Positions 22,450 to 44,113 of a stretch of 64,000 bases of DNA are shown one piece after another. Made by a program: the position numbers and the translations under genes. The notes beneath the pieces are model-generated. The model ran no database searches. It was not told the origin of the DNA and saw nothing but the letters and a program-made list of their open reading frames with translations. Position 1 is the stretch's first letter; every line of letters starts with the position of its first letter. This stretch comes from Escherichia coli (GTDB taxonomy: Bacteria > Pseudomonadota > Gammaproteobacteria > Enterobacterales > Enterobacteriaceae): assembly GCF_024700885.2 (NCBI RefSeq), contig NZ_CP117016.1. One strand, given 5' to 3'.

Positions 22450-22473
22450 AGATCCCTCCTGTGGCTAACGCCT

Positions 22474-22515: not shown

Positions 22516-22610
22516 CAAGTCTAAAGCATAAATCTTTGTCACAAAGGTGGAGGCAATGTCAGTGGTGTGTGACAATAAGAGTATCGGCAGGACATTAAGA
22601 GGAATGAGCC

Positions 22611-23027
22611 ATGGCAAACCCGGAACAACTGGAAGAACAGCGTGAAGAAACACGTTTGATTATTGAAGAATTACTGGAAGATGGCAGCGATCCGGACGCG
22701 CTGTACACCATCGAACACCATCTTTCCGCAGACGATCTGGAAACTCTGGAAAAAGCGGCAGTTGAAGCGTTTAAACTCGGTTACGAAGTGACCGATCCAG
22801 AAGAGCTGGAAGTTGAAGATGGTGACATCGTGATTTGCTGCGACATCCTCAGCGAGTGCGCATTGAATGCCGATCTGATCGATGCCCAGGTTGAACAACT
22901 GATGACGCTGGCGGAGAAATTTGACGTTGAGTACGACGGTTGGGGCACTTACTTTGAAGATCCTAATGGCGAAGATGGCGACGATGAAGATTACGTCGAT
23001 GAAGACGATGACGGGGTTCGCCACTAA
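22611..23027 (+). CDS. rraB: Regulator of RNase E activity B
   Basis: 138-aa highly acidic product with D/E-rich C-terminus. Confidence 0.9.
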
Positions 23028-23041
23028 TTAATTGATTAAAA

Positions 23042-23074
23042 TGCCCGATAGCACACACTAGCGGGCATTTTTTT
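23042..23074 (+). terminator. Intrinsic terminator after rraB
   Basis: Hairpin TGCCCGATAGC...GCTAGCGGGCA followed by TTTTTTT. Confidence 0.6.
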
Positions 23075-23576
23075 AGAGTTCGCGTAGCATCCGCACTTCA
23101 CAATCGACATGGCCCGTGCAGCCAAGCGCATAGTCGATATGCTCAAAGCCCAAATGCTCATAAAGCGCAATGGCTTCCTTTAAAAAAGCGGTCGTTTCCA
23201 GATAGCAGCGTTTGAAGCCCATCTCTCGTGCCTGCTCCATCGCCATTACGGCCAGTTTTTTCGCTAGCCCTTTACCGCGAATAGCCGGAAGAAAATACAT
23301 CTTTTGCAGTTCGCAAATGTCCGACTCACTCCCGGTTAATGGCGCAATCCCACCGCCGCCGACCACTTCACCCTCGTACTCAACCACCCAATATGCATGG
23401 CCAGGCTGACTATACACTTGATACAGCTCGTCAAGATTCGGATCGGCGACGGTGTAGCCTTTATCAGCGGTAAGACCGTATTCGGCGGATACCTGACGAA
23501 TGACGCGGGCAATAGCAGGATTATCCTGCAGCGTCAGGCGACGCATTACAGGTGATTGCGGCGCAATGTTATTCAT
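23073..23576 (-). CDS. yjgM: GNAT-family N-acetyltransferase
   Basis: 167-aa product with acetyl-CoA-binding motif (RGKGLAKKL). Confidence 0.8.
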
Positions 23577-23768
23577 AGTTTAACCCAATAAAAATAAAGT
23601 AATTATACATTTGTTTAATACCACTCTCTTCTTACGTGCGCAAGCGTCTTATAAAGCAATAAAGTTTTTGCCAGCCTATTACTGATAAGAGTATTGTAAC
23701 GTGGCAGAACATTTTACTGTCTGTATCTATAAATTATATCAATGGATTTTTTAATTCAGGGAATTTTT

Positions 23769-24965
23769 ATGGCTCAAGTTATTAATGAAATGGATGTTCC
23801 GTCCCATTCTTTTGTTTTTCATGGTACAGGTGAGAGATATTTTCTTATTTGTGTGGTGAATGTGTTGTTAACGATTATAACGCTAGGTATCTATTTACCA
23901 TGGGCATTAATGAAATGTAAGCGTTATCTTTATGCTAATATGGAAGTTAACGGACAACGATTTTCTTATGGAATAACCGGTGGGAATGTTTTTGTTAGTT
24001 GTCTTATTTTTGTTTTTTTCTATTTCGCAATCTTAATGACAGTGTCAGCAGATATGCCGCTTGTTGGTTGTGTTTTGACTTTGTTACTGTTGGTTTTGCT
24101 TATATTTATGGCAGCAAAAGGACTGCGTCATCAGGCCTTGATGACCAGTCTCAACGGCGTAAGATTTAGTTTTAATTGCTCTATGAAAGGGTTCTGGTGG
24201 GTAACCTTTTTCTTGCCGATTTTAATGGCCATTGGGATGGGGACTGTTTTCTTTATCTCGACAAAGATGCTACATGCCAATAGTTCAAGTAGTGTTATTA
24301 TATCTGTGGTTCTGATGGCAATAGTTGGTATTGTTTCCATTGGTATTTTTAATGGTACTTTATATAGTCTGGTAATGAGTTTTCTCTGGAGTAATACCAG
24401 TTTCGGTATACATCGTTTCAAGGTGAAATTAGATACTACATATTGTATAAAATATGCCATTCTCGCATTTTTAGCTTTATTACCTTTTCTCGCTGTTGCT
24501 GGTTATATTATCTTCGATCAAATATTAAATGAGTATGATAGTTCTGGGTATGCAAATGATGATGTTGAGAATTTACAGCAGTTTATGGAAATGCAACGTA
24601 AAATGATAATCGCGCAGTTAATTTATTATTTTGGGATTGCTGTTAGCACCAGTTATTTAACGGTGTCGTTGCGAAATCATTTTATGAGCAACCTGTCACT
24701 GAATGATGGGCGTATTCGTTTTCGCTCAACTTTAACGTACCACGGTATGCTTTATCGCATGTGTGCGTTGGTGGTGATATCCGGGATTACGGGTGGTCTG
24801 GCTTACCCACTGCTGAAAATATGGATGATTGACTGGCAGGCAAAAAATACGTATTTGCTGGGCGATTTGGATGACCTTCCTTTAATCAATAAAGAAGAAC
24901 AACCAGATAAAGGCTTCTTAGCCAGTATTTCTCGGGGAGTTATGCCTTCTTTACCATTTCTGTAA
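23769..24965 (+). CDS. yjgN: DUF898-family inner membrane protein
   Basis: 398-aa polytopic membrane protein from MAQVINEMDVPSH (internal Met of the longer ORF). Confidence 0.8.
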   Translation: MAQVINEMDVPSHSFVFHGTGERYFLICVVNVLLTIITLGIYLPWALMKCKRYLYANMEVNGQRFSYGITGGNVFVSCLIFVFFYFAILMTVSADMPLVGCVLTLLLLVLLIFMAAKGLRHQALMTSLNGVRFSFNCSMKGFWWVTFFLPILMAIGMGTVFFISTKMLHANSSSSVIISVVLMAIVGIVSIGIFNGTLYSLVMSFLWSNTSFGIHRFKVKLDTTYCIKYAILAFLALLPFLAVAGYIIFDQILNEYDSSGYANDDVENLQQFMEMQRKMIIAQLIYYFGIAVSTSYLTVSLRNHFMSNLSLNDGRIRFRSTLTYHGMLYRMCALVVISGITGGLAYPLLKIWMIDWQAKNTYLLGDLDDLPLINKEEQPDKGFLASISRGVMPSLPFL

Positions 24966-24970
24966 GAGAT

Positions 24971-25005
24971 AAAAAAGGCCGGAGCATGCTCCGGCCTTCG
25001 TTTTC
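24971..25005. terminator. Bidirectional intrinsic terminator between yjgN and valS
   Basis: Hairpin AAGGCCGGAGCATGCTCCGGCCTT flanked by A-run and T-run. Confidence 0.6.
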
Positions 25006-25018
25006 ATCACGGTGTTGA

Positions 25019-27874
25019 TTACAGCGCGGCGATAACAGCCTGCTGTTCAAGCAGCTTCGCTTTCGCTTCCGCATAGCCTTCCAGCTTCTCACGCTCTTTC
25101 GCGATAACCGCTTCCGGTGCACGGGCGACAAAGCCTTCGTTCGCCAGTTTGTTCTCGATACGGCTGATTTCACCTTCGATCTTCGCCACTTCTTTCGCCA
25201 GGCGCGCCAGCTCATCTTCTTTGTTGATGAGGCCAGCCATCGGGATCAGCAGCTCTGCGCCGTCGATGATCTTCGTAACGGAAACCGGACCTTTGTCATC
25301 GGCAGGCAGCACGGTGATGCTTTCCAGACGCGCCAGCGTTTGCAGGAAGCCACGGTTTTCGTTCACTCGACGTTCTGCATCCGCGCTGCAACCACGCAGC
25401 AGCAGCTCCAGCGGTTTGCCCGGCGCGATGTTCATTTCTGCACGGATGTTACGTACAGCAACGATCGCCTGTTTCAGCCACTCGGTGTCGGCCAGTGCGG
25501 CTTCATCAACCTGAGACGCATCGTACTGCGGGAACGGTTGCAGCATGATGGTGTCAGCAGTGATACCGCAAAGTACTTTCACACGCTGCCAGATGGTTTC
25601 GGTGATGAACGGAATGATCGGATGCGCCAGGCGCAGCAAACCTTCCAGTACAGTCACCAGCGTATGGCGAGTACCGCGCAGTTCGGCTTCTGTTCCACCG
25701 TTCATTACCGGCTTGGTCAGCTCCAGATACCAGTCACAGAACTGGTTCCAGGTGAACTCATACAAAATGCCTGCGGCGATATCGAAGCGGAAGCTGTCCA
25801 GCGCTTCGCGGTACGCTTTGATAGTCTGGTTGAACTCCGCCAGAATCCAGCGGTCCGCCAGCGACAGCGTCATTTCACCGCCGTTGAAGCCGCAATCCTG
25901 ACCTTCTGTGTTCATCAGCACAAAGCGGCTGGCGTTCCACAGCTTGTTACAGAAGTTACGGTAGCCTTCCAGACGCTTCATATCCCAGTTGATGTCACGA
26001 CCGGTAGAAGCCAGCGCCGCCAGGGTGAAGCGCAGCGCGTCAGTGCCGTGCGGCTCAATGCCGTTCGGGAACTGTTTCTCGGTGCGCTTACGGATTTTGT
26101 CCGCCAGCTGCGGCTGCATCATATTGCCGGTACGTTTTTCCAGCAGTTCTGGCAGCGAAATACCGTCAACCATATCCAGCGGGTCGATAACGTTACCCTT
26201 GGATTTGGACATCTTCTGGCCTTCGTCGTCACGAATCAGACCGGTCATGTAAACAGTGTGGAACGGCACCTGCGGTTTGCCATTTTCATCTTTGATGAAG
26301 TGCATGGTCATCATGATCATGCGGGCAATCCAGAAGAAGATGATGTCGAAACCAGATACCATCACGCTGGTTGGGTGGAACTGACGCAGGGCGTCGGTAT
26401 TTTCCGGCCAGCCGAGCGTGGAGAAGGTCCACAGCGCGGAGGAGAACCAGGTGTCGAGAACGTCTTCGTCCTGACGCAGGGCAACGTCGGCACCGAGGTT
26501 ATTTTCTTTACGCACTTCGTCTTCATTGCGGCCAACATAAACGTTACCCGCTTCGTCGTACCATGCCGGGATACGGTGACCCCACCACAGCTGACGAGAG
26601 ATACACCAGTCCTGAATATCGCGCATCCAGGAGAAGTACATGTTTTCGTACTGCTTCGGTACGAACTGAATGTCGCCGTTCTCAACCGCTTCAACTGCCG
26701 GTTTCGCCAGTACATCGGCACGCACGTACCACTGGTCGGTCAGCATCGGTTCGATAACCACGCCGCCACGGTCGCCGTAAGGAACGGTCAGGTCGTGCGG
26801 TTTAATTTCTTCCAGCAGGCCGAGTGCATCAACCGCAGCAACGACTGCTTTACGTGCAGCAAAACGCTCGAGTTTCTGGAACTCTGCCGGGATTTCGCTG
26901 GAATAAACGTCAGATTCGTTACCTTTGGTATCGAACACCTGGGCGCTTTCACGGATATCGCCGTCAAAGGTCAGGATGTTGATCATCGGCAGCGCGTGAC
27001 GTTTACCGACTTCATAGTCGTTAAAGTCGTGCGCCGGGGTGATTTTCACGCAGCCGGTGCCTTTTTCCATGTCGGCGTGTTCGTCGCCAACGATCGGAAT
27101 ACGACGGTTAACCAGCGGCAGAATGACATATTTGCCAATCAGATCTTTGTAACGCGGATCTTCCGGGTTAACGGCTACGCCGGTATCGCCCAGTAGGGTT
27201 TCCGGGCGAGTGGTCGCAACCACCAGATAATCTTTACCGTCTGCGGTTTTCGCGCCGTCAGCCAGCGGATAGCGGATGTGCCACATCGAACCTTTCGATT
27301 CGCGATTTTCCACTTCCAGGTCAGAGATAGCGGTACGCAGTTTCGGGTCCCAGTTTACCAGGCGCTTGCCACGGTAAATCAGGTCTTCTTTATACAGACG
27401 AACGAAAACTTCTTTCACCGCATTGGACAGGCCTTCGTCCATGGTGAAGCGTTCACGCTCCCAGTCGACGGAGTTGCCGAGACGGCGCATCTGACGGGTA
27501 ATGGTGCCGCCAGATTCCGCTTTCCATTCCCAGATTTTGTCGATGAAAGCTTCGCGGCCGTAGTCGTGACGGGTTTTACCTTCTTCTGCGGCAATCTTGC
27601 GCTCAACGACCATCTGGGTAGCGATCCCGGCGTGGTCAGTACCGACCTGCCACAGGGTGTTTTTGCCCTGCATGCGCTGATAGCGGATCATGGTATCCAT
27701 GATGGTTTGCTGGAAGGCGTGACCCATATGCAAACTGCCGGTGACGTTCGGCGGCGGGATCATGATGCAGAAACTTTCCTGGCTTTCATCGCCATTAGGC
27801 TTAAAGTAGCCCTGCTTTTCCCAGTGCTCGTAAAGCGGCTGTTCGATATCTTGTGGGTTATATGTCTTTTCCAT
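25019..27874 (-). CDS. valS: Valine--tRNA ligase
   Basis: 951-aa product with HMGH and KMSKS motifs and C-terminal coiled coil. Confidence 0.97.
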
Positions 27875-28317
27875 TATTTCCAGGTTGCCGTATTCAGGTT
27901 GAAACCAGCCACGCGGTAGGCTTTATAGCGTTCGCGCGCCAGTTGTTTCAGAGAATCTTCATAAGGAACGAAGTCTACCACTTCTGTGAAAGCGGTGGCA
28001 AAATCTGCAAAGCTTGTTCGCAGACTAATCAATATATCGCGCGGGCTGCTGCTACGCTTTTGCGGCCAGGCGATCTCCACCGGCGCACCGCCGCGCGGTC
28101 CTTCTCCCGCTAAATTATGCGGAACAAAGCTTTCTGCCGGACGCGCCCACAGGGCTTCATCCAGCCGGTAAGCCTGCTTTTCATCTTCACAGGCGATGAG
28201 CACGCGCTTACCGCTGCGCCAACGTTCTGCGGCAATTTCACACACCAGCTGCTCAACGGCGCTTAAGCCATCGACGGTGGTGTCATTGTCCAGAAGGTAG
28301 AACGTTGCGTTTTTCAT
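27874..28317 (-). CDS. holC: DNA polymerase III chi subunit
   Basis: 147-aa product from MKNATFYLL; stop overlaps the valS start. Confidence 0.9.
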
Positions 28318-34203: not shown

Positions 34204-35223
34204 TCAGAAGTCGGCTTTCAGGACCACTCGGTAGCGCGCTTTACCATCGCGTACATGCTGAATGGCGTCGTTAATTTTCGACATCGGGAACAATTCGGTA
34301 GTCGGCGCAACCTTGCTGCGGGCGGCAAAGCGCATCAGCTTACGCAACTCATAAGGCGTGCCGGTAGCAGAACCAGAGACGCTGCGGTCGCCCGCAATTA
34401 ACGTAAAGGCCGGAACAGACAGCGGCGTGAGAACCGCACCGACCGTATGGAAATTACCGCCGTACGTCAGCGCTTCAAAATAAGGCTGCCAGTCGAGGCT
34501 GACGTTGACGGTGTTGATAATGAGATCAAACTGCCCCGCCAGTGCTTTCAGTGCCTGCGGATCGCGGCTATTCACCACTTTATCGGCACCCATCGCCAGT
34601 ACTTCCTGCTCTTTCGCCGGATTCGAACTAAAGGCTGTCACCTCGCATCCCATTGCGTGCAGAAGTTTTATAGCGATATGCCCCAGCCCGCCAATACCAA
34701 TTACCCCAACGCGGCTGGTGGCAGTGATATGGTGCATTAACAGTGGTTTGAAGACCGTGATACCACCGCACAACAGCGGCCCGGCGGACTCGATATCAAT
34801 ATTTTCTGGCAGTGGAATCACCCATTGCCAGTCCGCACGCAACTTCTCGGCAAAGCCACCGCGATTCATAATCGTCGGCACCGCACCTTGCTCACAGTTG
34901 ATCTGATTACCGCTAATACAGGCATCGCAATGCCCGCAGCTACGCGCCGTCCAGCCAATCCCGACACGCTGACCGACCTGCAAACCTTTATCCTGCGCGG
35001 CGCTCCCGAGCGCCACCACGCGACCAATCACCTCATGCCCGGCAACCAGCGGATATTGTGAAAATCCCCATTCGTTATCGATCATCGACAGATCGGAATG
35101 GCAGATCCCGCAGTAATCCACCTGCACTTCAACATCTTGTGGCTTCAGTTCACCGGGATCGTACTCATAAACTTCCAGTTCGCCGCCTGCTTCTTTTGCG
35201 GCATAGCTTTTTATCATCGACAT
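34204..35223 (-). CDS. ahr: NADPH-dependent aldehyde reductase (Zn-dependent MDR family)
   Basis: 339-aa product from [14 protein letters not shown]; Zn-binding GHEVIG and CGxCxxC motifs. Confidence 0.88.
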
Positions 35224-35418
35224 TTTTTGGTCCTTCTCTGGTGTTGTCTGGGAAGTGTAGAGCATGGCAGGGCGGGGTGCCTGGAGTGTGACAAAGGTTA
35301 CACATCGCTGTATGCAATGCTGAAAATTTCAGCACTTAGCGAGGTGCGAGCAAGCTGGCGCTTGCATGGTGGCGTGCGACAGGTATAATCCACAACGTTT
35401 TCCGCATACCTCTTCAGT

Positions 35419-35503
35419 GCCGAAGTGGCGAAATCGGTAGACGCAGTTGATTCAAAATCAACCGTAGAAATACGTGCCGGTTCGAGTCCGGCCTTCGGCA
35501 CCA
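35419..35503 (+). tRNA. leuX: tRNA-Leu (anticodon CAA)
   Basis: 85-nt sequence GCCGAAGTGGCGAAATCGGTAGACGCAGTTGATTCAAAATCAACC...GGTTCGAGTCCGGCCTTCGGCACCA with long variable arm and encoded CCA. Confidence 0.9.
35479..35503 (+). repeat. Island junction (attL-like): leuX 3' end, repeated at 41077-41101
   Basis: 25-bp GGTTCGAGTCCGGCCTTCGGCACCA present twice in direct orientation. Confidence 0.75.
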
Positions 35504-36016
35504 AGTCACTAAATTCCTTACAATACAGGTAGTTAGACAATAAAATCTGTCTCTTTTGCCTGTAAGAAATGCTCTGTTATGTCCCTTGAAAAAGCCGCTG
35601 TGGTTGATAGTGGTAATTGGGATGTTAACTCATAGCGGCGTGTAGTTCCAAGCGTCAAACACGTACTGACTCAACTTGAAAGCTATGACGTAGCCACTGT
35701 CTCTAAACAATCCCAAAAACTTTTAGTGAAGCGCATTTTAGCCCGATGCCCCCGTTCTGCCGCTGTCGCGAGACGCCGCAGGGGATAAACAGGTTTATGG
35801 TGGTCACGGTACTTGCAGACCATATGCAAGCTCTGCCAGCGGTTCGGCCTCGCTCCCCTTGGGTACATGGTCATCCTGATAAGCCTCACTAACTGACATA
35901 ACTGTGATGTAGTCGCCAGAGGCTCCGCTTGTTGTCTTACCACCAACGGGGCTTTATGGATTCTATTGCGGTATGTTTGAAAGTGCGCGGGGGTTCATTC
36001 CCGCGCGTCCGGCGCT

Positions 36017-36931
36017 TTATGGTAAGTATTTAAGTATTTCTGCTGCCCAGTTTACACGGTGGATGACACGGGCATGGTGCAAGTTTCCGTCTAGTATTTC
36101 GGCTTTAGTTAGCTGGGATAACTGCTGCCAATTATTGTTAAGTATATAAGTTGCGTTATTACATTGTGAGCTTTCTAGCACGTAAATGTTTTGGCCTGTG
36201 AACCCAAATATCACGTAGCCTTGGAACCCAGCTTGCCCAACCGCTACGAAATCTGGTTTTTTACTATTGATAAGTTCAAGTCTGCCTTCAACAACAGCGG
36301 TATTGCCCTTTCCCCTGATCTTAATAGCTGAAAGGATTTTTGAGCCGATAGTACTCCAAGGCTGTTGACCCTGAGGCAGGAGGCTCCAGTTTAGTTTTAT
36401 AGATTTACTTTTAACGATGGTATTAAGTTGGTCGTCAACAGTTTCGCACAACCCAAAAAGCTCTAAAAAAAGATTAATGCAGTGAGCCACTAACTCTTTG
36501 TTGTTAGCTGTCAAACTTAGCTTTGGAGAGATGATCAACTTCTCCCCTTGAAGATTCTCTACAATCTTTAACTCTATGCTTGGTGGAGGGGTGAGGATTC
36601 TCTTGTAGCGCTTATACTCAATTTCACGAGTGTCAGTAACTTCTTGAGTTGCGCCCCCTCCGATCCATTGCTTTCTAGTCCATGAAATTTGTCTGTATGC
36701 AGTTTCTTTAGGTGCTGTTTTGTCAGGTACTGATTTGCCATTAGCATTGAATCTGGTTATTGGCCCTAAAATCTTGGGGAGGACTTCTTCACCTAAAGCT
36801 CTTTGACTTGAGAAACCAATAGAGTCCGTTTTCCCCGCATCTGGCAAAGAATGTGCAATGTAGATATCACGGCCATCAAAGTTAGGTATGTAATTATCAA
36901 TATTTCGAATACGCTTTTTCTGAATAAGCAT
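36017..36931 (-). CDS. Hypothetical protein, 304 aa, no family recognised by eye
   Basis: Long ORF with SD (AAGGAA) upstream of ATG; first gene of the island next to leuX. Confidence 0.6.
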   Translation of the reverse strand: MLIQKKRIRNIDNYIPNFDGRDIYIAHSLPDAGKTDSIGFSSQRALGEEVLPKILGPITRFNANGKSVPDKTAPKETAYRQISWTRKQWIGGGATQEVTDTREIEYKRYKRILTPPPSIELKIVENLQGEKLIISPKLSLTANNKELVAHCINLFLELFGLCETVDDQLNTIVKSKSIKLNWSLLPQGQQPWSTIGSKILSAIKIRGKGNTAVVEGRLELINSKKPDFVAVGQAGFQGYVIFGFTGQNIYVLESSQCNNATYILNNNWQQLSQLTKAEILDGNLHHARVIHRVNWAAEILKYLP

Positions 36932-37058
36932 GGATCGTTCCTTTTGATTTTATCTTACTGTTTACATAACCAACCAAGCCGGGCACAATCGAGCCGTTAG
37001 AAACGATAGTGAGGCTAACAATCGTTATGAGTTTGCAGACTCATGGCGGTCATGCTTC

Positions 37059-37094
37059 ATAGACCGGATTCACGCAGGTGACTCCGGTTTTTTT
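37059..37094 (+). terminator. Orphan plus-strand intrinsic terminator
   Basis: About 10-bp stem (CCGGATTCAC / GTGACTCCGG, one mismatch), GCAG loop, followed by 7 T; no plus-strand ORF upstream. Confidence 0.5.
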
Positions 37095-37782
37095 ATGCCC
37101 ATCATTTATACATGAGCACAACATATAGGGTGTGTTAATAAGATTACCCCCTACATGTTCAGCATTCTAGTTAGGATTCTTTGCAGTACAAGGGGTGATT
37201 TTGAGGTTAAATTGAGGTTGTCAAAGGGAAATTTCGACCAACCCTACGTGCCGTAAGGCTTAGGCTGTATGTCAATGTTTCAGAAAAAAAATGAAAATTT
37301 GATCGAGTGCTGATTTCTTTAGCACGAGAACATGAGATCGAACCAAAATATTGCAAAGTTTTGAACAAAACTTGAGCTGCCTCGTGTCTCCATAGCCAAG
37401 ACGAATGCAGTTTAAATAAGCTAAGTCAGCTCTCAAAAGTCCTTTATGACCCGAACCAAAAATTGTACCTCTTAAACCCCCACCGCAAGCGGCTCTCCGG
37501 GGTTTGTGCGCGTGGAGTAATGCGATTGTACTGGGTATGTGCGCACAACCCTCTACAAGCCGCATTCTACCGTTAGCCTATAGCTGAATCCCCGGCTTGA
37601 AAAATTGCACGCTTATGGTTGCCCCTCCCTCAACTGTATAGCTCGCCCGCGCCCCCGTGCGCATGTGCGTGCCCGCGCGTCAGGGGTCGCTGAGAAAACC
37701 CTAAGATTTTGCTCATCCGAGACAACCGTTGCAGGCGCGCGTTGCCGGGGCACACTGTTAGTGTTTGATGGTGTCATCAATC

Positions 37783-37892
37783 GACCGTTTTCTGGCACCT
37801 CCCAATCGCACGCTTTCACACTGTTGGAAAAATAGCCTTGGCTTTTCTGGCAGGCCATCCTAATGTTGGCCTCGTTTTCTGGCAGGGGTCAG
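37783..37892 (+). repeat. Three direct repeats of (C)GTTTTCTGGCA upstream of the recombinase gene
   Basis: cgaccGTTTTCTGGCAcc, ggcTTTTCTGGCAgg, ctcGTTTTCTGGCAgg at about 37789, 37843 and 37875. Confidence 0.4.
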
Positions 37893-37906
37893 ATGGGGAG
37901 ATAACA

Positions 37907-38467
37907 ATGGCAACTTTTGGCTACGGACGTGTTTCGACATCGCAGCAGGATACTGAGAACCAACGGCTGGAGCTTGGGCAGGCTGGGTGGCAAATTGATT
38001 ACTGGTTTGCCGATGTTGTTAGCGGGAAGGTTCCGGCAATGCAACGTAAAGCATTTTCTGAAATGCTCAATAAAATCCGCGATGGTGAAACGTTGGTGGT
38101 AGCGAAGCTTGATCGTCTGGGGCGTGATGCGATTGACGTCCTGCAAACGGTAAGGGCGCTGGCTGACCGTAATATCAAGGTTCTTGTCCACCAGCTTGGT
38201 AACACAGATCTCACTTCTGCCGCTGGGAAGTTGCTATTATCTATGCTCGCCGCGGTTGCGGAGATGGAGCGTGATCTGCTGATTGAGCGCACTCAGGCGG
38301 GACTATCACGAGCAAAAGCCGAAGGTAAGAAATTGGGCAGACCTCCTAAAATCGCGTCAGAAGCCCGTAGAGAGATTTTAGAGAAAAAGAATAGCGGTTT
38401 GAGTATCAGTGCGTTAGCGCGTCAATATGGCGTTTCAAGAGCGACTGTAGCAGCTATTACCGATTGA
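37907..38467 (+). CDS. Small serine recombinase (resolvase/invertase family)
   Basis: 186-aa product from MATFGYGRVSTSQQD (catalytic Ser motif), C-terminal HTH; SD GGGGAG upstream. Confidence 0.85.
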   Translation: MATFGYGRVSTSQQDTENQRLELGQAGWQIDYWFADVVSGKVPAMQRKAFSEMLNKIRDGETLVVAKLDRLGRDAIDVLQTVRALADRNIKVLVHQLGNTDLTSAAGKLLLSMLAAVAEMERDLLIERTQAGLSRAKAEGKKLGRPPKIASEARREILEKKNSGLSISALARQYGVSRATVAAITD

Positions 38468-38480
38468 ATATGGAGAGTTT

Positions 38481-39326
38481 ATGGCTTACACAGCAACTGT
38501 TATCCCTGTAATGATTGCTTCTCCTGGTGATGTCGCTGAAGAGAGACAAGTCATTCGTGAAATGATCCATGAGTGGAATGATATAAATTCAGCTCGTTCA
38601 AAAGTAATGTTGACACCAATTGGATGGGAAACTCATACATCACCCGAATTAGGAGTTAGGCCTCAGAAGTTGATTAATCAAAGATTATTAGTAGATTGTG
38701 ATTTATTAATCGGTGTGTTTTGGACTCGTCTAGGCTCACCGACTGGGAACGAGGCCAGCGGAACAGTCGAAGAAATCCACCGTCATTTGAATGCGGGAAA
38801 ACCGGCAATGATTTACTTTTCCTCAAAGCCTGTTGCCCCTGAAAGCCTTGATAGAGAACAATATGAGTCTCTTAAATTGTTCAAAACTGAGTGCATGCAA
38901 AAGGGATTGATAGAGTCTTTTAATGACTTATCTGATTTCAAAGACAAAGTCCGTAGGCAACTTTCGATAATTATTTCTAGTAGCCCTTATTTGTCTTCTC
39001 TTATATCTACCATTAACAATTCTCCTGATGCGAATACAAGTCAATCTTTGCCAGAAAGTAATTTGTCCGCCGATGCACTCAGTTTGCTGAAATTGGCATG
39101 TGTCGATGATAGCGGAACAATTTATGTGATAAGGCATTTAGGTGGCACGGATATTCAAGCGGGAAATCAATCCTTTGGTGGAAGTTCGGCTAGAGAGGTA
39201 GCCCGTTGGGAGGGCGCACTTAACGAACTGTTATCCTTTGATTATGTGATTGAAAGAGGGGCAAAAGGACAAATGTATTATGTTACTCATAAAGGCTGGA
39301 CATTTCTTGAATCTTTAAATGAATAA
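38481..39326 (+). CDS. Hypothetical protein with DUF4062/TIR-like-looking N-terminal domain, Ser-rich linker and small C-terminal domain
   Basis: 281-aa ORF 14 bp after the recombinase gene; N-terminal pattern VIPVMIASPGDVAEERQ ... CDLLIGVFWTRLGSP ... GKPAMIYF; domain call is by eye only. Confidence 0.55.
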   Translation: MAYTATVIPVMIASPGDVAEERQVIREMIHEWNDINSARSKVMLTPIGWETHTSPELGVRPQKLINQRLLVDCDLLIGVFWTRLGSPTGNEASGTVEEIHRHLNAGKPAMIYFSSKPVAPESLDREQYESLKLFKTECMQKGLIESFNDLSDFKDKVRRQLSIIISSSPYLSSLISTINNSPDANTSQSLPESNLSADALSLLKLACVDDSGTIYVIRHLGGTDIQAGNQSFGGSSAREVARWEGALNELLSFDYVIERGAKGQMYYVTHKGWTFLESLNE

Positions 39327-39362
39327 TTAAATGCGAGGCCATTACATAAGTTTATTTTTGAT

Positions 39363-39391
39363 GTGAGGGTGAATTCCCTCACATTTTTATT
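39363..39391 (+). terminator. Intrinsic terminator after the recombinase/DUF4062-like gene pair
   Basis: Hairpin GTGAGGG-tgaatt-CCCTCAC followed by ATTTTTATT. Confidence 0.6.
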
Positions 39392-39881
39392 CGAAAGAGG
39401 CCGCAATGACTTCTCCTGTTTTTGCGTTGAAAACACAAAAGTATTGAAGCGGAGCTAGCATCCCCAAGCCGTTAACTACCTTAGCTTGTTGCCCAAATGC
39501 CTGAATAATCTTCGCATTCTCATCGTGCCAGAGATAAGTATTAAATACAGGCGCTTCGCTTTCTTGCCACACATGGCGAAACTTCGCTTTCTCATCCATT
39601 ACCTTTTTGCACTCCCTGACCGGGTTATGGTGCGTTTTCGCATAGCATTCCGGGTTGTCATCTGCACATACGATATCTTTTCGTGCTGTCTGATGCTCAG
39701 CACCTACAGCAGAAAAGGCGCATACGCCCAGCACCAATGAGAGAGTGCCCAGAGCACCCCATACAGTTGCGCGTAGCGTGCTGATGTGCTGCTTTGATAC
39801 AGCATGGGCAACTACACTATAACTGGCCCAGCTAATCGCGGCTCCCGCTGCAATCGGTAGTAAAAAGTCTGCTCCCGTCAT
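39387..39881 (-). CDS. Hypothetical small membrane-anchored protein (two N-terminal TM helices, Cys-containing soluble C-terminus)
   Basis: ORF 39387..39938; start preferred at Met 39881 with GAGGG SD; no family recognised. Confidence 0.5.
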   Translation of the reverse strand: MTGADFLLPIAAGAAISWASYSVVAHAVSKQHISTLRATVWGALGTLSLVLGVCAFSAVGAEHQTARKDIVCADDNPECYAKTHHNPVRECKKVMDEKAKFRHVWQESEAPVFNTYLWHDENAKIIQAFGQQAKVVNGLGMLAPLQYFCVFNAKTGEVIAASFE

Positions 39882-40121
39882 GATTCCCTCACTTTCCAAA
39901 CCACATCGCGCCTGATAGCGAACGCTGGTGACGCCCAACCGATGATGATCATCATACTTGTTGGGTTTTAAATGTCACCATTGGTGTTTGTTTTGAATCA
40001 AAAAGGATTGTCATGATACAGCCGATGAATGCTAGTGACTAAGCTCGCTGACGTGAGATTGGATTCAAAATATCTCATATGGAGCGTGGCCTTACAGTGG
40101 TCAAAATTGCACATTCAGTGC

Positions 40122-40586
40122 ATGAAAAAATCCCTGAGAATACAGTTTGGCGAGCGGGTAAAAGAACTGCGCATTGCCACCGGATTGAGCCAGGAGGCCT
40201 TTGCCGATCGGTGCGGGTTTGCACGTAGTTATATGAGCAGAATTGAACGTGGTGGCTCTAATGCGTCTCTGGATGCGATTGAGGTGCTGGCTAACGCTCT
40301 GAGCGTTGAGCCGTGGCAGTTGTTAGCGCCTGGCCCATCTGAAGATAACGACTCGGAACTGTTGGTTCCATACGCAGCCGATGGTTCCTGTTTTCACCCC
40401 GGTTTGGCGAGCACCCGTGATGGCTCGTTTGGCGTAGGTGATAAAGCGGCTCAGAAGCGTTTTGGCACGTTTGCTGAAGCTCTTGAGTATCTTCGTAGCA
40501 TGGAGACAGCAAAATGGCGTAGGCCTAATCCTAGCGGCAACTGGGGTATCGTATCAGCGGTTCGGTGGGACAAACTGAGAAAGTAG
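40122..40586 (+). CDS. XRE-family HTH transcriptional regulator with about 90-aa C-terminal extension
   Basis: Cro/C1-type HTH (LRIATGLSQEAFADRCGFARSYMSRIERG); divergent from the membrane protein gene. Confidence 0.65.
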   Translation: MKKSLRIQFGERVKELRIATGLSQEAFADRCGFARSYMSRIERGGSNASLDAIEVLANALSVEPWQLLAPGPSEDNDSELLVPYAADGSCFHPGLASTRDGSFGVGDKAAQKRFGTFAEALEYLRSMETAKWRRPNPSGNWGIVSAVRWDKLRK

Positions 40587-41076
40587 CTCAAGTGTAAGTT
40601 TATGAATTTTCATGCTGTATGGATGAACAGTATTCATTAGATGCTGATAGTCTTATGTTTCATCAGCCCTTTGTTTCTATAAGAGTGAATAAAACAGCAA
40701 AATGCGGGTGCGTTACGTAGGCGTTACGGTGGCGTTTCGCTTTGGCTCTTAATGGCTTAATTCATATAAATAACATTGAGTTAAATAGTTATTCTGAACA
40801 AGGTCTGCCGGGGTCTAACTGGTTTCAAAATCCGAACGCAGTGGCGTTTATTCAACGTCCACATAGCTGACAAATGTTCTTTCCTCCCGACTCGGCAGAC
40901 CTCCAGAAACATTAAAAGGCAGGTATGGCACGTTGATGTTTTATGCCGCCACGAACACTCGGTTTGATTCCGTCCAGCGGATCAAACTTAATATGTAGCC
41001 CCTAGAACAAAAAGGTCCTACGATTGCTCTCTTAACAGCTAACAGGAACGTGATTACAGCAGGTTATAGAGACTTA

Positions 41077-41101
41077 GGTTCGAGTCCGGCCTTCGGCACC
41101 A
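41077..41101 (+). repeat. Island junction (attR-like): displaced copy of the leuX 3' end
   Basis: Second copy of GGTTCGAGTCCGGCCTTCGGCACCA, followed by the expected tRNA terminator hairpin. Confidence 0.75.
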
Positions 41102-41114
41102 AAAGTATGTAAAT

Positions 41115-41140
41115 AGACCTCAACTGAGGTCTTTTTTTAT
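41115..41140 (+). terminator. Intrinsic terminator following the displaced leuX 3' end
   Basis: GACCTC-aact-GAGGTC followed by TTTTTTT. Confidence 0.55.
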
Positions 41141-41287
41141 GCCTGAAATCCAGTGTTTATCTATCTTTCCCGCTATATTAACTCTCTCAAGGTCAACCGA
41201 TATCAACGTACATCTACCAACATATGTTGGTACAGATGATGGTATTTCCGGTTCGATAATGCTTGTACCAACAGGGAGGGAATACGC

Positions 41288-41878
41288 ATGGCATTAACAG
41301 ATATCAAAGTCAGAGCAGCCAAGCCAACGGATAAGCAATATAAGCTGACTGATGGTGGCGGTATGCATCTGCTTGTCCATCCAAATGGTTCTAAGTACTG
41401 GCGTTTGCAGTACCGTTATGAGGGAAAGCAAAAAATGCTGGCACTTGGGGTTTATCCTGAAATCACACTAGCGGATGCCAGAGTACGTCGTGACGAGGCG
41501 CGTAAGCTGCTTGCGAATGGCGTCGATCCGGGAGACAAAAAGAAAAATGATAAGGTTGAACAGAGTAAAGCACGAACCTTTAAAGAAGTCGCGATTGAGT
41601 GGCATGGCACCAATAAAAAGTGGTCTGAAGATCACGCCCATCGTGTGCTAAAAAGTCTTGAAGATAATCTTTTTGCAGCGCTTGGTGAACGTAATATCGC
41701 TGAGTTAAAAACTCGAGATTTATTAGCACCTATTGTTCCTTTAACCATCCGCAATGGCCAACGGTTTACAGAGCATAATACGAATAGCCGTAGAGCCAGC
41801 CAGTTACGGTGGTCGCGATGGTGTGTCCGCCAGAAAATCACCACGAATACCAGAATCGCGGCACTGACCAGAAAATGA
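41288..41878 (+). pseudogene. P4-type tyrosine integrase, N-terminal fragment (truncated or frameshifted after about 150 aa)
   Basis: N-terminus MALTDIKVRAAKPTDKQYKLTDGGGMHLLVHPNGSKYWRLQYRYEGKQK is typical of P4-family integrases; the catalytic domain is absent. Confidence 0.75.
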
Positions 41879-42372
41879 TAAACAGGAAACACGGGGAGGT
41901 TCACTTTGCTTTCTCCTGTAGTATTTTCTGTAGGTTCTGAACCGGTTCGAGCGGGGTTGTGAGGCTGATGGCAATCCCCGGGCTCTTCCTGCATGTTACA
42001 CTGGTACTGCAACAGGGGGCCTTCGCTCCTATGACATTACTCAGTATTTTCACTACTACACCCCATCTGCCATCCATAACAACCGATTCACCCCCTCGGG
42101 AGGCGTTGTTGCCCGTCACCCGGACAGGCATCGTTATGGACTTCTCTTGTTGCACGATCGATCAATTGTTATGCATGCTGACACCACTACCCCGGTGGGT
42201 ATGACCGATGCCTTTCTCACTCTCTTCCCGGTCATCGTCGGCCTTCCCCGTTATTGTGGCGTGTCGGCACCATCGACGGCATTTCGATGGCTGCTCAGTG
42301 TTCACTCACGTTACGGCCCGCATAACCCATTGACTTCCTGAAGAAGTCGTTTCAGGGAGAGATTCAGCCCTT

Positions 42373-43358
42373 TTGTTACCTCCTGGACCGCTTCCTGTCC
42401 TTCCAGTTGGAGCGAGAGTTAGTCGGGGCGGACTTTCACCGACGGAAAGATCGTGCATTTCAAGGCACACACAACAATATCTGCGAGCGTGCTATCCGTC
42501 CGGTCGTTATGGGACGAAAGGCCTGGTTGTTCGCTGGTTCACTGATGGCCGGGAACCGAGCGGCACAGATAATGAGCCTTCTGGAAACAGCAGTCTGGAG
42601 CCACATGCTTGGCTGACGGACGTCCTAACGCGTCTGCCCGGAGTGGCCGGAGGAGAGGTTGGCAGAGTTACTGCCTCTTGAGGGCTTTACCTTCTTTGGG
42701 TAAGTGATACCTGCCGTCAGGTGTTTGTGCACCGGGCCATAACCTGCAGTTGGGAATTGAACGCCTGACAACAGGAAATGAGCTAGAGCAGTAAACACGC
42801 GGGCTGACAATGGGTCAGAATATGAGTCTGCCCGGCGTTATTCTTGGGGTCAGTACTTCAGATCCAGCCTCCGGTACCAGACTAGCTAGCCCCTACGCAA
42901 CCAAATAAATCAACCATCGTAAGAGTGCAATCGTTCATATACACTGCCGGTGATGGGCGGAAAAATGCGTTAATGTTGAGTTCCTCGAACCCTTACCAAT
43001 TAAGGGACATAGCCAGATACGCAACTGGCTGATGCAAGCAGTCTGATGTCTTTAGATTCGCTGGCCTGCGGGCATGACAATGTCAAACAGTCAAAGATTG
43101 TGGCGTTGACGGTCAGTCTGGGTCGTAAAAACTTCCTGTTCTTCGGCTCTGACCATGGTGGTGAGCGGGGAGCGCTACTGTACAGCCTGATCGGGACGTG
43201 CAAACTGAATGACGTGGATCCAGAAAGCTACCTTCGCCATGTGCTTGGCGTCATAGCAGACTGGCCGGTCAACCGGGTCAGCGAACTGCTTCCGTGGCGT
43301 ATAGCACTGCCAGCTGAATAACACATCCCCGTCAATACGGCCCTCGCTGTACGCTTAC
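42373..43358 (+). mobile_element. IS66-family transposase remnants (two C-terminal fragments), right end at about 43358
   Basis: Fragments with GRKAWLFAGS and LGRKNFLFFGSDHGGERGALLYSLIGTCKLNDVDPESYLRHVL; terminal ...ACGCTTAC matches the IS66 right end at 57116. Confidence 0.55.
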
Positions 43359-43434
43359 GATTAGTGGTGGTGTCTTCCAGTGCGAGGAGCAGCGGATGAG
43401 CCTCACATGCCCTTGCAGTGGCGGTAAATCCGGC

Positions 43435-43815
43435 TTAGGCAATGGCTTCCGGGGACACAGACGGGTTACGTATCAGGCGGTACGCACTTTCAACCTGAGC
43501 AGTGGAGTGGGATGATTTCACAATAGAAAGACCTGCATGCTGAGCGAGAGAAGAGGCCAGTGACACAAGGCGTCGTGTACGACGCGGATCACCGAGACGG
43601 GCATGTCCAAACTGCTCGTTATCCCATGAATAACAATCAGAAAGTACCATAACAGACCCGAAGAAAATGAAATATAAGAGAAGATCAACGGGTGAAGAAA
43701 AAGTTCAAAAAATCGCTGCCGGGGAGGAAGGAAACTACCGAATGGAAAGAGTCCCCCTAAAGCAGACTGACAGACATCACAAATCCCCGGGTGGGGATTT
43801 GTGTATAAGAGACAG
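43435..43815 (-). mobile_element. IS4-family (IS50-like) element remnant: terminal inverted repeat plus transposase N-terminal fragment
   Basis: Fragment ARLGDPRRTRRLVSLASSLAQHAGLSIVKSS...AYRLIRNPSVSPEAI resembles the IS50 transposase N-terminus; end sequence CTGTCTCTTATACACAAA at 43798-43815. Confidence 0.55.
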
Positions 43816-44113
43816 CCTGATAGGGGGGCGCATACATTATGCATACATACTCTCGGATATTGTAAAAGTTTTTTATATAATTACTAAGTTAGCTACCATC
43901 AATAAAATATTGACGTTAGCAGGTAACATCAACTTAATATATAAAAATATTCTTAGGTGAAAGTAACTGTTCAAGATAAAATAAAATCATCGCTTAAAAA
44001 GAAAAACACTCTCTTTGTTATATACGTACTCTGATAAATGCCAGATAAAACTATTAATTTTCATAAAAATATAATGCCATATATTATGATGCTATACATC
44101 TTACATATTCAAT

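What the first reader, a model, noticed from the sequence alone, without database searches (positions are those of the whole stretch)
37783..39391. Serine recombinase co-transcribed with a DUF4062/TIR-like-looking protein
The recombinase gene (37907-38467) and a 281-aa ORF (38481-39326) are 14 bp apart on the same strand and end in a clean intrinsic terminator (39363-39391). The second protein has an N-terminal pattern that by eye resembles the DUF4062/TIR-like fold found in immune-type proteins, then a Ser-rich linker and a small C-terminal domain. A site-specific recombinase fused transcriptionally to such a protein suggests either an invertible/phase-variable switch or a recombinase-dependent effector. 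Three direct repeats of GTTTTCTGGCA sit in the 125 bp upstream and are candidate recombinase or regulator binding sites.
Basis: inference. Interest (0 to 1): 0.7.

Follow-up and report, generated by a model that had tools for sequence, protein, structure and literature searches.

The report
Phage-defence gene riding behind a resolvase
A small E. coli genomic islet carries a stand-alone TIR-like (DUF4062) protein of a recently described anti-phage type directly behind a resolvase gene, but the two look like neighbours on a mobile element rather than working partners.

Summary
A 186-aa serine recombinase (37907-38467) and a 281-aa ORF (38481-39326) lie 13 nt apart, end in a hairpin terminator, and are preceded by three copies of (C/G)TTTTCTGGCA.

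The 281-aa protein has a DUF4062/TIR-like core, a helical stalk, a Ser-rich linker and an acidic winged-helix C-terminal domain. This matches the single-gene anti-phage NADases reported in two 2026 preprints (Swarozyc, Evangelion). It is a separate, untested lineage.

The recombinase is probably not its partner. In 80 loci from other species, only the 3 enterobacterial ones have it directly upstream, and no neighbour is conserved. In E. coli the recombinase module occurs in 764 of 5426 genomes and the DUF4062 gene in 437. The same slot is empty in UTI89 and holds other genes in O157:H7.

The repeats behave like resolvase half-sites in a res-like site. They change with the recombinase paralogue. 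The first lies in a 26-bp imperfect palindrome. Three unrelated left flanks meet at that palindrome, and one junction maps to its centre.

No second site exists in the window, so an invertible switch is not supported. Nothing here was tested experimentally. Verdict: a new member of a known kind, of modest interest.

The parts
35419..35503 (+). tRNA-Leu(CAA), leuX. Its last 26 nt (35479-35504) form the left att-like repeat of the islet.
   Evidence: ARAGORN; Rfam tRNA 59 bits; repeat family D1.
35505..37783 (.). Left arm of the islet, including an orphan 304-aa ORF at 36017-36931 on the - strand. ARS-C101 carries the same 304-aa protein after leuX, and its DNA matches the window (97%) from at least 37500 to 37783, where it joins a different serine recombinase.
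   Evidence: ARS-C101 match ends at 37783. In AR437 the first 465 bp follow that island's attR.
37772..37797 (+). Candidate crossover site ('site I'): the 26-bp imperfect palindrome TGTCATCAATCG-AC-CGTTTTCTGGCA. Its right half is repeat 1.
   Evidence: Best palindromic match in the whole window, 20/24, against a shuffle maximum of 17-18. Homology among 8 modules starts here, and three unrelated left flanks each keep a degenerate left half-site. The reciprocal junction in ARS-C101 ends at 37783.
37822..37852 (+). Candidate accessory site II (TGTTGGAAAAAT-7 nt-GCTTTTCTGGCA). Its right half is repeat 2 (37841-37852).
   Evidence: 17/24 in the palindrome scan. The block TGTTGRAAAAWTAGCCTTGGC is conserved in 8 variants, but the right half itself is not conserved in 2 of them.
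37873..37884 (+). Repeat 3 (CGTTTTCTGGCA), the candidate site III half-site nearest the recombinase gene. No clear inverted partner.
   Evidence: CCGTTTTCTGRCAGG is conserved in all 8 variants.
37838..37866 (+). Candidate sigma-70 promoter read by eye: -35 TTGGCT, 17-nt spacer, -10 TAATGT (TATTGT/TATTTT in variants). It overlaps repeat 2 and lies just upstream of repeat 3.
   Evidence: Read from the sequence and the conserved blocks. The consensus scan did not report it, so this is inference only.
37907..38467 (+). Small serine recombinase (186 aa) with catalytic Ser10 in YGRVSTSQQ and a C-terminal HTH_7.
   Evidence: Pfam. gamma-delta resolvase E 1.4e-25, Gin invertase 6.5e-23, Tn3 resolvase 2.5e-22. 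PHROG 'DNA invertase' 1.2e-55.
38481..38921 (+). DUF4062/TIR-like core of the 281-aa protein (residues 1-147). Invariant motifs are D17..E21-R22, W49, P55-E56-L57-G58 and S93-G94-T95..E97-E98. The predicted catalytic Glu codons are at 38769-38774.
38922..39068 (+). Helical stalk (residues 148-180) and Ser/Thr/Asn-rich linker (181-196, disordered over 180-191).
   Evidence: AlphaFold2 model: helices 150-167 and 169-179, pLDDT<50 at 180-191. Stalk identity is only 30% across the family.
39069..39326 (+). C-terminal winged-helix 'AUX' domain (residues 197-281) and stop codon. It is acidic, with net charge -5.
39360..39392 (.). Intrinsic-terminator-like hairpin between the convergent 281-aa gene and the 183-aa gene.
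39387..39938 (-). Backbone gene: membrane protein of unknown function. The longest ORF is 183 aa; RefSeq aa (a 495-bp CDS).
   Evidence: phrog_20749 E 7.6e-102. Conserved at 66-99% in AR437, UTI89, pF1053 and L003.
40029..40586 (+). Backbone gene: XRE-type HTH regulator. The longest ORF is 185 aa; RefSeq aa.
   Evidence: PADLOC 'Control_protein' 1.9e-18. 77-99% identical in the other island variants.
41077..41102 (+). Exact 26-nt copy of the leuX 3' end, the right att-like repeat that closes the 5.6-kb islet. A truncated P4-type integrase of the next element starts at 41288.
   Evidence: D1.

Best explanation
The window holds a 5.6-kb islet without an integrase, integrated at leuX and bounded by 26-nt att-like repeats at 35479-35504 and 41077-41102. 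Two separate things sit side by side in it.

(1) A resolvase-type serine recombinase with its own res-like site directly upstream.
- The three (C/G)TTTTCTGGCA repeats are read as one half-site each of three dimer-binding sites. The crossover site is the distal 26-bp palindrome at 37772-37797.
- By analogy with Tn3/gamma-delta, the recombinase would bind these sites to repress its own promoter. It would recombine only when two copies of the site lie in direct repeat, as in multimers, cointegrates or tandem islands.
- The present islet looks like the product of such an event. It has the left arm of an 'E2'-type leuX element (ARS-C101/E2348-69 type, integrase at its right end). This is joined at the centre of site I to the right arm of an 'E1'-type island (AR437 type, integrase at its left end). 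That would explain why the hybrid has att repeats but no integrase.

(2) A cargo gene in the variable slot downstream of the recombinase.
- It encodes a self-contained DUF4062 protein: TIR-like core, helical stalk, linker and acidic winged-helix domain.
- By homology and architecture it most likely works like Swarozyc/Evangelion. The winged-helix domain would sense a phage component. This would release the oligomerised TIR-like core, which would hydrolyse NAD+ (predicted catalytic Glu E98, with E97 adjacent) and abort the infection.
- It is probably transcribed as the second gene of the recombinase operon, at a low, recombinase-limited level.

Shown here: the anatomy, the folds, the homology, the distribution, the lack of a conserved partner, and the position of the mosaic junction. 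Inferred: NADase activity, defence function, autoregulation, co-transcription, and the deletion history.
For: DUF4062 protein:
- Pfam DUF4062, PADLOC PDC-S60 N-terminus at E 1.3e-26, and NCBI's own name for close relatives.
- S93-G94-T95..E97-E98, D17 and E21-R22 are invariant in 34 relatives. These motifs are shared with Eva01 of pMW2, whose E87 is needed for defence (10.64898/2026.06.25.731849).
- KpSwz has the same core-stalk-winged-helix layout and is a portal-activated NADase (10.64898/2026.05.01.722283).
- Relatives are full-length and patchily spread over many phyla: 308 species genomes.
- No neighbour is conserved, and the recombinase is directly upstream in only 3 of 80 loci.
- The core is 71% identical across the family, the AUX 49% and the stalk 30%. 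Among four enterobacterial alleles the tail is 38-73% identical while the adjacent recombinase is 82-90%.
- The N-terminal core also hits 155 Enterococcus, 9 Rhodococcus and 5 Synechococcus plasmids. These are taxa listed as Evangelion-positive in the preprint.

Cargo status:
- The recombinase module is in 764 of 5426 E. coli genomes. The DUF4062 gene is in 437.
- The slot is empty in UTI89 and in plasmid pF1053-2, and holds two other genes in EDL933.
- The insert relative to those elements is 38459-39383.
- UTI89 carries a complete Gabija system immediately left of the site.

Recombinase and site:
- Closest solved relatives are gamma-delta and Tn3 resolvases and Gin.
- The repeats are conserved together with the gene in 8 variants.
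- The 47%-identical paralogue in ARS-C101 has three repeats of a different motif at spacings of 50 and 29 bp.
- Site I is the best palindrome in the window.
- E2 has its integrase at the right end. E1 has its integrase at the left end.
- In Tn3-family elements res has three subsites with site III next to tnpR, crossover within site I, embedded autoregulated promoters, and known mosaics that break at site I (PMC7157771).
Against: - No experiment supports any step for this protein or this recombinase.
- The single-sequence Pfam hit is weak (E 3.9e-4). The hhalign match to Eva01 has only 26% probability, and its printed register pairs E98 with Eva01 E85, not E87.
- The residues quoted for KpSwz (D16, R18, D71, W176, W238/Y239) do not map onto this protein, so it is not a close orthologue.
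- In Kangiella the gene sits alone among housekeeping genes.
- Only site I has a convincing inverted half-site. Repeat 2 is not conserved in two variants.
- The promoter was read by eye and was not reported by the scan.
- The central dinucleotides of the two presumed parental sites differ (TT in ARS-C101, AC in AR437). This would make a canonical serine-recombinase exchange inefficient.
- No extant tandem E2-E1 array was found, although the search was not systematic.
- The res spacing figures used for comparison (53 and 34.5 bp) come from memory.
Confidence: 0.6

Rival explanations
1. Invertible or phase-variable switch. The recombinase would flip a DNA segment and so turn the DUF4062 gene, or a neighbour, on and off.
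For: The recombinase scores well against invertase families: PHROG 'DNA invertase' 1.2e-55, Gin 6.5e-23, and NCBIfam Mpi 4e-28, which is far below that model's cut-off.
Against: No second site-I-like sequence was found in either orientation in the 64-kb window. The 384 E. coli genomes holding the whole region match as single places, and every listed one is a single collinear piece. Gene order and orientation are the same in all eight variants inspected. The three-site array next to the gene is a resolvase feature, not an invertase feature.
Confidence: 0.04
2. Recombinase-dependent effector. The two proteins would form one system, for example with the recombinase or its DNA products activating or targeting the TIR-like protein.
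For: The 13-nt gap and the same spacing are kept in four diverged enterobacterial alleles. In E. coli every locus inspected has the gene directly behind this recombinase.
Against: 74 of 80 loci from other species have no serine recombinase within 5 kb. Only the 3 enterobacterial loci have one directly upstream, and no neighbour is conserved. About 43% of E. coli recombinase modules lack the gene. Recombinase and DUF4062-tail divergence are discordant. In the two preprints, related DUF4062+AUX proteins defend as single genes in heterologous hosts.
Confidence: 0.06
3. The repeats are operators for another regulator, such as the islet's XRE-type HTH protein (40029-40586), and not recombinase sites.
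For: The HTH protein is a conserved backbone gene of the same islands. Only one of the three repeats has a clear inverted partner.
Against: The repeat motif changes when the recombinase paralogue changes: CGTTTTCTGGCA here and GGTGTCATCAAT in ARS-C101. Element mosaics break at the palindrome containing repeat 1, and one junction maps to its centre. TGCCAGAAAACG resembles the gamma-delta half-site TGTCCGATAATT at 7 of 12 positions (the gamma-delta sequence is from memory).
Confidence: 0.1
4. The 281-aa protein is not an immune protein. It would be a nucleotide- or nucleoside-processing enzyme (NDT/MilB-like), or a winged-helix regulator with a housekeeping or element-maintenance role.
Against: Distribution is patchy and HGT-like across phyla. 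It sits in cargo slots of islands that also carry Gabija or AbiJ-like genes. It is homologous to a PADLOC defence-candidate family and to the Evangelion-positive plasmid set. The sensor-like tail evolves fast. The winged helix is acidic.
Confidence: 0.15

Closest known systems
Swarozyc (KpSwz), a DUF4062 TIR-like NADase defence system (Osinski et al., bioRxiv 2026, 10.64898/2026.05.01.722283)
   Same: Single-gene layout: N-terminal DUF4062/TIR-like core with a conserved Glu, a helical stalk, and a C-terminal HTH/winged-helix auxiliary domain. It is found on islands next to other defence genes.
   Different: Not a close orthologue. The quoted KpSwz residues do not map. The distance from the first strand to the catalytic Glu is about 92 residues here. 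It is about 78-79 in Eva01 and, as inferred from the paper's numbering, in KpSwz. The extra length lies in a highly conserved, extended loop between the second strand and second helix (residues 49-61). The trigger and activity of this protein are unknown. The KpSwz sequence could not be retrieved, and no solved structure matches by sequence.
Evangelion Eva01 of S. aureus pMW2 (Ibarra-Chavez et al., bioRxiv 2026, 10.64898/2026.06.25.731849)
   Same: DUF4062 core plus an auxiliary region, single gene, carried on mobile elements. It shares the D-x-x-E-E-R and S-x-T-x-x-E motifs. This protein's core also hits the Enterococcus, Rhodococcus and Synechococcus plasmids that the preprint counts as Evangelion-positive.
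   Different: Only about 32% identity over 127 columns, hhalign E 7e-4. Eva01 is 324 aa, so its region after the core is far longer than the 85-aa acidic winged helix here. Eva01 is plasmid-borne in Gram-positives. This gene is chromosomal in every E. coli genome that holds it.
PADLOC PDC-S60 (candidate single-gene defence system)
   Same: The first ~165 residues (core plus start of the stalk) match the profile's N-terminus at E 1.3e-26.
   Different: The PDC-S60 profile is 906 positions long, and the rest has no counterpart here. No paper mentioning PDC-S60 was found.
Tn3/gamma-delta-type resolvase with its res site
   Same: A small serine recombinase of about 185 aa with a C-terminal HTH (gamma-delta E 1.4e-25). 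There is an array of three repeats directly upstream with the last one next to the gene. The crossover site is the distal one, and element mosaics break there. Passenger genes lie next to the module. These features of res are described in PMC7157771 and 10.1101/2021.12.07.471667.
   Different: No Tn3 transposase or terminal inverted repeats; the module sits in tRNA-integrating islands. Site I is 26 bp with a 2-bp centre, not 28 bp. Inverted half-sites at sites II and III are unclear. Nothing was tested biochemically.
Hin/Gin/Pin DNA invertases
   Same: Comparable sequence similarity and a 26-bp crossover-site format.
   Different: No second inverted site and no invertible segment were found.
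Integrase-only defence islands at E. coli tRNA hotspots (Hochhauser et al. 2023, PMC10121019)
   Same: A small island at a tRNA gene carrying integrase/recombinase genes and defence cargo, with no other mobility genes.
   Different: That study does not describe this backbone: DUF6538-type integrase, NIPSNAP, cargo, res-recombinase, cargo, membrane protein, HTH. It also does not describe its site-I mosaicism. The text search found no mention of resolvase.

Membership tests
DUF4062 (PF13271) superfamily | Match to the Pfam DUF4062 profile | tested here: met
   E 3.9e-4 over residues 10-99 for the window protein. 34/34 aligned relatives match at E<=0.1 and 21/34 at E<=0.001.
DUF4062 (PF13271) superfamily | TIR/NDT-like alpha/beta fold (five parallel strands) | tested here: met
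DUF4062 (PF13271) superfamily | Conserved catalytic Glu after the third strand | tested here: inconclusive
   E97 and E98 are invariant in 34 sequences. The S-x-T-x-x-E motif lines up with Eva01 S82-T84-E87. However, hhalign's own register pairs E98 with Eva01 E85.
Swarozyc | C-terminal HTH/winged-helix auxiliary domain joined by a helical stalk | tested here: met
Swarozyc | Close sequence relationship to KpSwz | tested here: inconclusive
The quoted residues D16, R18, D71, W176 and W238/Y239 fall on G, V, V, S and R/E here. No PDB chain matches the family profile.
Swarozyc | NAD+ hydrolysis activated by a phage portal; abortive infection | not testable with these tools
   Needs biochemistry and phage assays.
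Evangelion | Single-gene unit of DUF4062 core plus auxiliary region, with no obligatory partner gene | tested here: met
   No conserved neighbour in 80 loci from 80 species. The two-domain layout is full-length in 308 species genomes.
Evangelion | Anti-phage phenotype | not testable with these tools
Tn3/gamma-delta-type resolvase with res | Small serine recombinase with catalytic Ser near residue 10 and a C-terminal HTH | tested here: met
   YGRVSTSQQ with S10; Resolvase plus HTH_7; full-length alignment to gamma-delta resolvase.
Tn3/gamma-delta-type resolvase with res | res with three dimer-binding sites upstream of the gene, site III proximal | tested here: inconclusive
   Three direct repeats at spacings of 55 and 32 bp. 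Only the distal one has a significant inverted partner. Repeat 2 is not conserved in 2 of 8 variants.
Tn3/gamma-delta-type resolvase with res | Crossover at the centre of site I | tested here: met
   Comparative evidence only. ARS-C101 homology ends at 37783, and AR437-type homology starts at 37775-37782. Both parental sites are palindromes centred at this point.
Tn3/gamma-delta-type resolvase with res | Part of a Tn3-family transposon (tnpA, terminal inverted repeats) | tested here: not met
   No transposase ORF in the islet. The backbone is a tRNA-integrating island.
Hin/Gin-type DNA invertase switch | Two crossover sites in inverted orientation flanking a segment | tested here: not met
   The palindrome scan of all 64 kb finds only one site above background. 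All listed full-length genome matches are single collinear pieces.

The most novel reading that the evidence does not exclude
The resolvase and its res-like site may be more than a leftover of element maintenance. They could act as a dedicated exchange point for defence cargo in a family of leuX/thrW islands. Site I would let whole arms be swapped between different resident elements, even ones with 47%-identical recombinases. Examples of left-arm cargo are Gabija, DUF1643 and the orphan 304-aa gene. The recombinase-repressed promoter would give a safe, low level of expression of a toxic NADase placed behind the recombinase gene, with a burst on entry into a new host.
Probability: 0.25. Interest if true: 0.55.

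Novelty: new member of a known kind. Interest (0 to 1): 0.35.

Why it matters
If the reading is right, about 8% of complete E. coli genomes carry an untested lineage of the newly described DUF4062 NAD+-depleting phage defences. These include Nissle 1917 and the ST648 strain in the record. The lineage has its own conserved extended loop and a fast-evolving acidic winged-helix sensor, which makes it a ready target for finding a new phage trigger. The context also gives a concrete, nucleotide-level example of how integrase-less 'defence islets' could arise: recombination at a resolvase site between two different islands sharing one tRNA hotspot. Neither point overturns current views.

Tried and rejected
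- The PDB sequence search with the family profile found nothing.
- The KpSwz and EcSwz sequences could not be retrieved. Only UniParc ids are given in the supplement, and cluster look-up did not show those ids. Mapping the residue numbers quoted in the paper argues against close orthology.
- No paper mentions PDC-S60.
- Rfam found nothing in 35000-42000 apart from leuX.
- The promoter scan did not report a + strand promoter upstream of either gene. The promoter proposed here is therefore by eye only.
- A second recombination site was sought with a half-site palindrome scan using spacers of 0-11 nt. None rose above shuffle background.
- An extant tandem E2-E1 array was sought through the 15 genomes with a full-length match to the paralogous recombinase (54 matched in all). 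No accession obviously overlapped the E1-carrying strains listed earlier, and only ARS-C101 and E2348/69 were inspected. This was not a systematic search.
- I considered that the small serine recombinase integrates the islet at leuX. I rejected this because the 26-nt tRNA-end repeats and the intact relatives point to tyrosine integrases.
Full report
**Where this is.** The window is E. coli chromosome around leuX: yjgR, ahr, then tRNA-Leu(CAA) at 35419-35503. The last 26 nt of leuX recur exactly at 41077-41102. So 35505-41102 is a discrete 5.6-kb islet bounded by att-like repeats. A truncated P4-type integrase and IS debris follow it.

The islet has five ORFs:
- an orphan 304-aa ORF on the - strand,
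- the serine recombinase,
- the 281-aa ORF,
- a 183-aa membrane protein on the - strand,
- an XRE-type HTH protein.

It has no integrase of its own.

**Checking the observation.**
- The recombinase (37907-38467, 186 aa) has Resolvase and HTH_7 domains.
- The 281-aa ORF (38481-39326) starts 13 nt after the recombinase stop codon, behind a GGAGAG motif.
- A 10-bp hairpin with a T-run lies at 39360-39392.
- The repeats are two exact copies and one copy with one mismatch. They are clustered far beyond chance, at spacings of 55 and 32 bp.

**The 281-aa protein: sequence and distribution.** It belongs to a large, well-conserved family of about 282 aa. There are 2121 database hits, with about 55% identity over the full length in distant Proteobacteria.

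A scan of one genome per species found 308 genomes with a full-length relative. These cover Proteobacteria, Planctomycetota, Chlorobi, Bacteroidota, Bacillota, Actinomycetota, Acidobacteriota, Nitrospira and one archaeon.

Pfam DUF4062 matches the window protein weakly (E 3.9e-4). It matches all 34 aligned relatives at E<=0.1. The first ~165 residues match the N-terminus of the PADLOC candidate system PDC-S60 at E 1.3e-26.

**The 281-aa protein: structure.** The AlphaFold2 model (pLDDT 78) gives four parts:
- a five-stranded alpha/beta core (residues 6-147),
- two stalk helices (150-179),
- a disordered Ser-rich linker,
- a C-terminal domain.

**Comparison with published systems.** Two 2026 preprints describe this kind of protein.
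- Osinski et al. (10.64898/2026.05.01.722283) show that DUF4062 is a TIR-like NADase. They show that a K. pneumoniae protein, Swarozyc, defends by abortive infection once a phage portal binds its auxiliary domain. Swarozyc has a core, helical stalks and a winged-helix auxiliary domain.
- Ibarra-Chavez et al. (10.64898/2026.06.25.731849) define Evangelion. These are single-gene DUF4062-plus-AUX defences on mobile elements, with F11, E87 and W162 needed in Eva01.

I recovered Eva01 from pMW2, and its numbering matches the paper. A profile comparison with the family gives E 7e-4. It shows shared D-x-x-E-E-R and S-x-T-x-x-E motifs. This points to E98, with E97 adjacent, as the catalytic Glu; both are invariant.

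The window protein is not a close relative of KpSwz. The residues quoted in that paper do not map. The distance from the first strand to the Glu is about 13 residues longer here. The extra length lies in a highly conserved loop, W49 to P61.

The core also hits 155 Enterococcus, 9 Rhodococcus and 5 Synechococcus plasmids. These are taxa listed as Evangelion-positive.

**Is the recombinase a partner?** The evidence says no.
- In the 80 best loci from different species, only the three enterobacterial ones have the recombinase directly upstream. Three others have some serine recombinase within 5 kb, and 74 have none.
- Clustering all flanking ORFs finds no conserved neighbour of any kind.
- In Kangiella the gene stands alone between housekeeping genes. 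In Stutzerimonas it follows a HEPN gene.

Within E. coli, the recombinase with its upstream repeats belongs to a recurrent island backbone:

tRNA - DUF6538-type tyrosine integrase - NIPSNAP - [cargo] - repeats - recombinase - [cargo] - membrane protein - HTH

The slot after the recombinase varies:
- the DUF4062 allele of the window (also in AR437 and Nissle 1917),
- a 65%-identical allele, plus 83% and 61% alleles in other Enterobacteriaceae,
- nothing in UTI89 and in plasmid pF1053-2,
- two unrelated genes in O157:H7 EDL933.

The recombinase module is in 764 of 5426 complete genomes. The DUF4062 gene is in 437.

The slot to the left of the repeats holds DUF1643, or in UTI89 a complete Gabija system (GajA E 4e-282, GajB 1e-234). 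So these are defence-carrying islands with two cargo slots around a resolvase gene.

Among the four enterobacterial alleles the recombinase is 82-90% identical and the DUF4062 core 80-92%. The stalk plus AUX is only 38-73% identical and is discordant with the recombinase. That fits a fast-evolving specificity domain.

**The repeats and the recombinase.** The closest solved relatives are gamma-delta resolvase (1.4e-25), Gin (6.5e-23) and Tn3 resolvase. Sequence alone does not separate resolvase from invertase.

The DNA is more informative:
- Repeat 1 is the right half of a 26-bp imperfect palindrome, TGTCATCAATCG-AC-CGTTTTCTGGCA (37772-37797). It is the best such site in the window at 20/24, against a shuffle maximum of 17-18. 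No second site exists.
- Homology among eight diverged modules begins inside this palindrome. Three unrelated left flanks each keep a degenerate left half-site.
- Strain ARS-C101 has the window's left arm. Its DNA matches up to position 37783, and it carries the same 304-aa protein. The arm then joins a 47%-identical paralogous recombinase.
- That paralogue has its own palindrome (TGTCATCAATCG-TT-CGATTCTTGCTA). It also has its own three direct repeats of a different motif, at spacings of 50 and 29 bp.

So the motif changes with the recombinase, and the mosaic junction lies at the centre of both parental palindromes.

In Tn3-family elements res has three subsites upstream of tnpR, with site III proximal. 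Crossover occurs in site I. Promoters inside res are repressed by the resolvase. Mosaics that break at site I are documented (PMC7157771; 10.1101/2021.12.07.471667).

The spacings here resemble those I recall for gamma-delta res (53 and 34.5 bp). That figure is from memory.

A weak promoter can be read by eye (-35 TTGGCT at 37838, -10 TAATGT at 37861). It overlaps repeat 2 and lies just upstream of repeat 3. The scan did not report it.

**A history that fits.** The ARS-C101/E2348-69 element ('E2') carries its tyrosine integrase at its right end. The AR437-type island ('E1') carries its integrase at its left end.

Suppose the two sat in tandem at leuX, as leuX|E2|att|E1|att. A deletion between their directly repeated site I copies would then leave:

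leuX - left arm of E2 - hybrid site I - recombinase - DUF4062 - membrane protein - HTH - att

That is the window: att repeats but no integrase.

In line with this, 86 genomes have the window-type left arm. Most of the other genomes holding the >=99%-identical recombinase-DUF4062 unit have the E1 left arm.

There are caveats. The central dinucleotides differ (TT versus AC). No tandem array was found. Microhomology-mediated recombination cannot be excluded.

**Verdict.**
- The DUF4062/TIR-like call and the idea that the repeats are recombinase sites are supported.
- The invertible-switch and recombinase-dependent-effector readings are not supported.
- The protein is a new, untested lineage of a kind of anti-phage protein described in 2026.
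- The recombinase is a resolvase-like backbone gene of the island.
- Co-transcription is likely and may set the expression level, but it was not tested.

Noticed in passing
window 36017-36931 (- strand): 304-aa ORF with no Pfam, NCBIfam, PADLOC or PHROG match. It has 305 full-length homologues (40-88% identity), spread patchily over Enterobacterales, Methylophaga, Nostoc, Desulfobacterales, Pyrinomonadaceae and Methanobacterium. It occupies the cargo slot between leuX and the recombinase site, so it is a candidate unknown defence or mobile-element gene.
   Followed up: partly
window 35479-35504 and 41077-41102; also 40961-40986: The exact 26-nt duplication of the leuX 3' end delimits a 5.6-kb islet that has no integrase. 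A third, 69%-identical tRNA-end-like copy lies 116 bp before the right repeat, which suggests older integration scars.
   Followed up: partly
L013 (E. coli UTI89) 1804-5903: The UTI89 version of the island lies upstream of a tRNA-Thr gene. It carries a complete Gabija system (GajA, GajB) directly left of the recombinase site and has nothing in the slot where the window has the DUF4062 gene.
   Followed up: yes
L096 (ARS-C101) 5265-5983; L099 (E2348/69) 13151-28047: A second leuX element type has a 47%-identical serine recombinase preceded by three GGTGTCATCAAT repeats. A DEAD/DEAH helicase, many small genes, HNH endonucleases and a tyrosine integrase at the far end follow. It has variable cargo between leuX and the repeats, and full-length matches occur in only 15 complete genomes.
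   Followed up: partly
window 39387-39938 (-) and 40029-40586 (+): This is a conserved backbone pair of unknown role. The membrane protein matches phrog_20749 (E 7.6e-102). The XRE-type HTH protein has a ~90-aa C-terminal extension and resembles restriction-modification 'control proteins' in PADLOC.
   Followed up: no
window 37751-37759 and 37817-37825: The 9-nt sequence CACACTGTT occurs twice, 66 bp apart. One copy is left of site I and one runs into the left half of candidate site II. It may be chance or part of the recombinase-binding array.
   Followed up: no
L016 (contig JAIJJM010000048.1, labelled MAG Collinsella sp.): A 9.9-kb contig binned as Collinsella encodes a recombinase 100% identical to the window's and the other islet proteins at 99%. 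It is probably E. coli DNA mis-binned into that MAG.
   Followed up: no
window 41288-44000: The element after the islet begins with a P4-type integrase truncated at about 41878. Fragments of a phosphoethanolamine transferase gene and of IS66- and IS4-family transposases follow, so this is a decayed tandem island.
   Followed up: no
H97-H101 (Synechococcus elongatus PCC 7942/6301 46-kb plasmid): The model cyanobacterium's large plasmid encodes a full-length member of this same 282-aa family (42.5% identity over residues 1-279). It would be a convenient second system for testing function.
   Followed up: no
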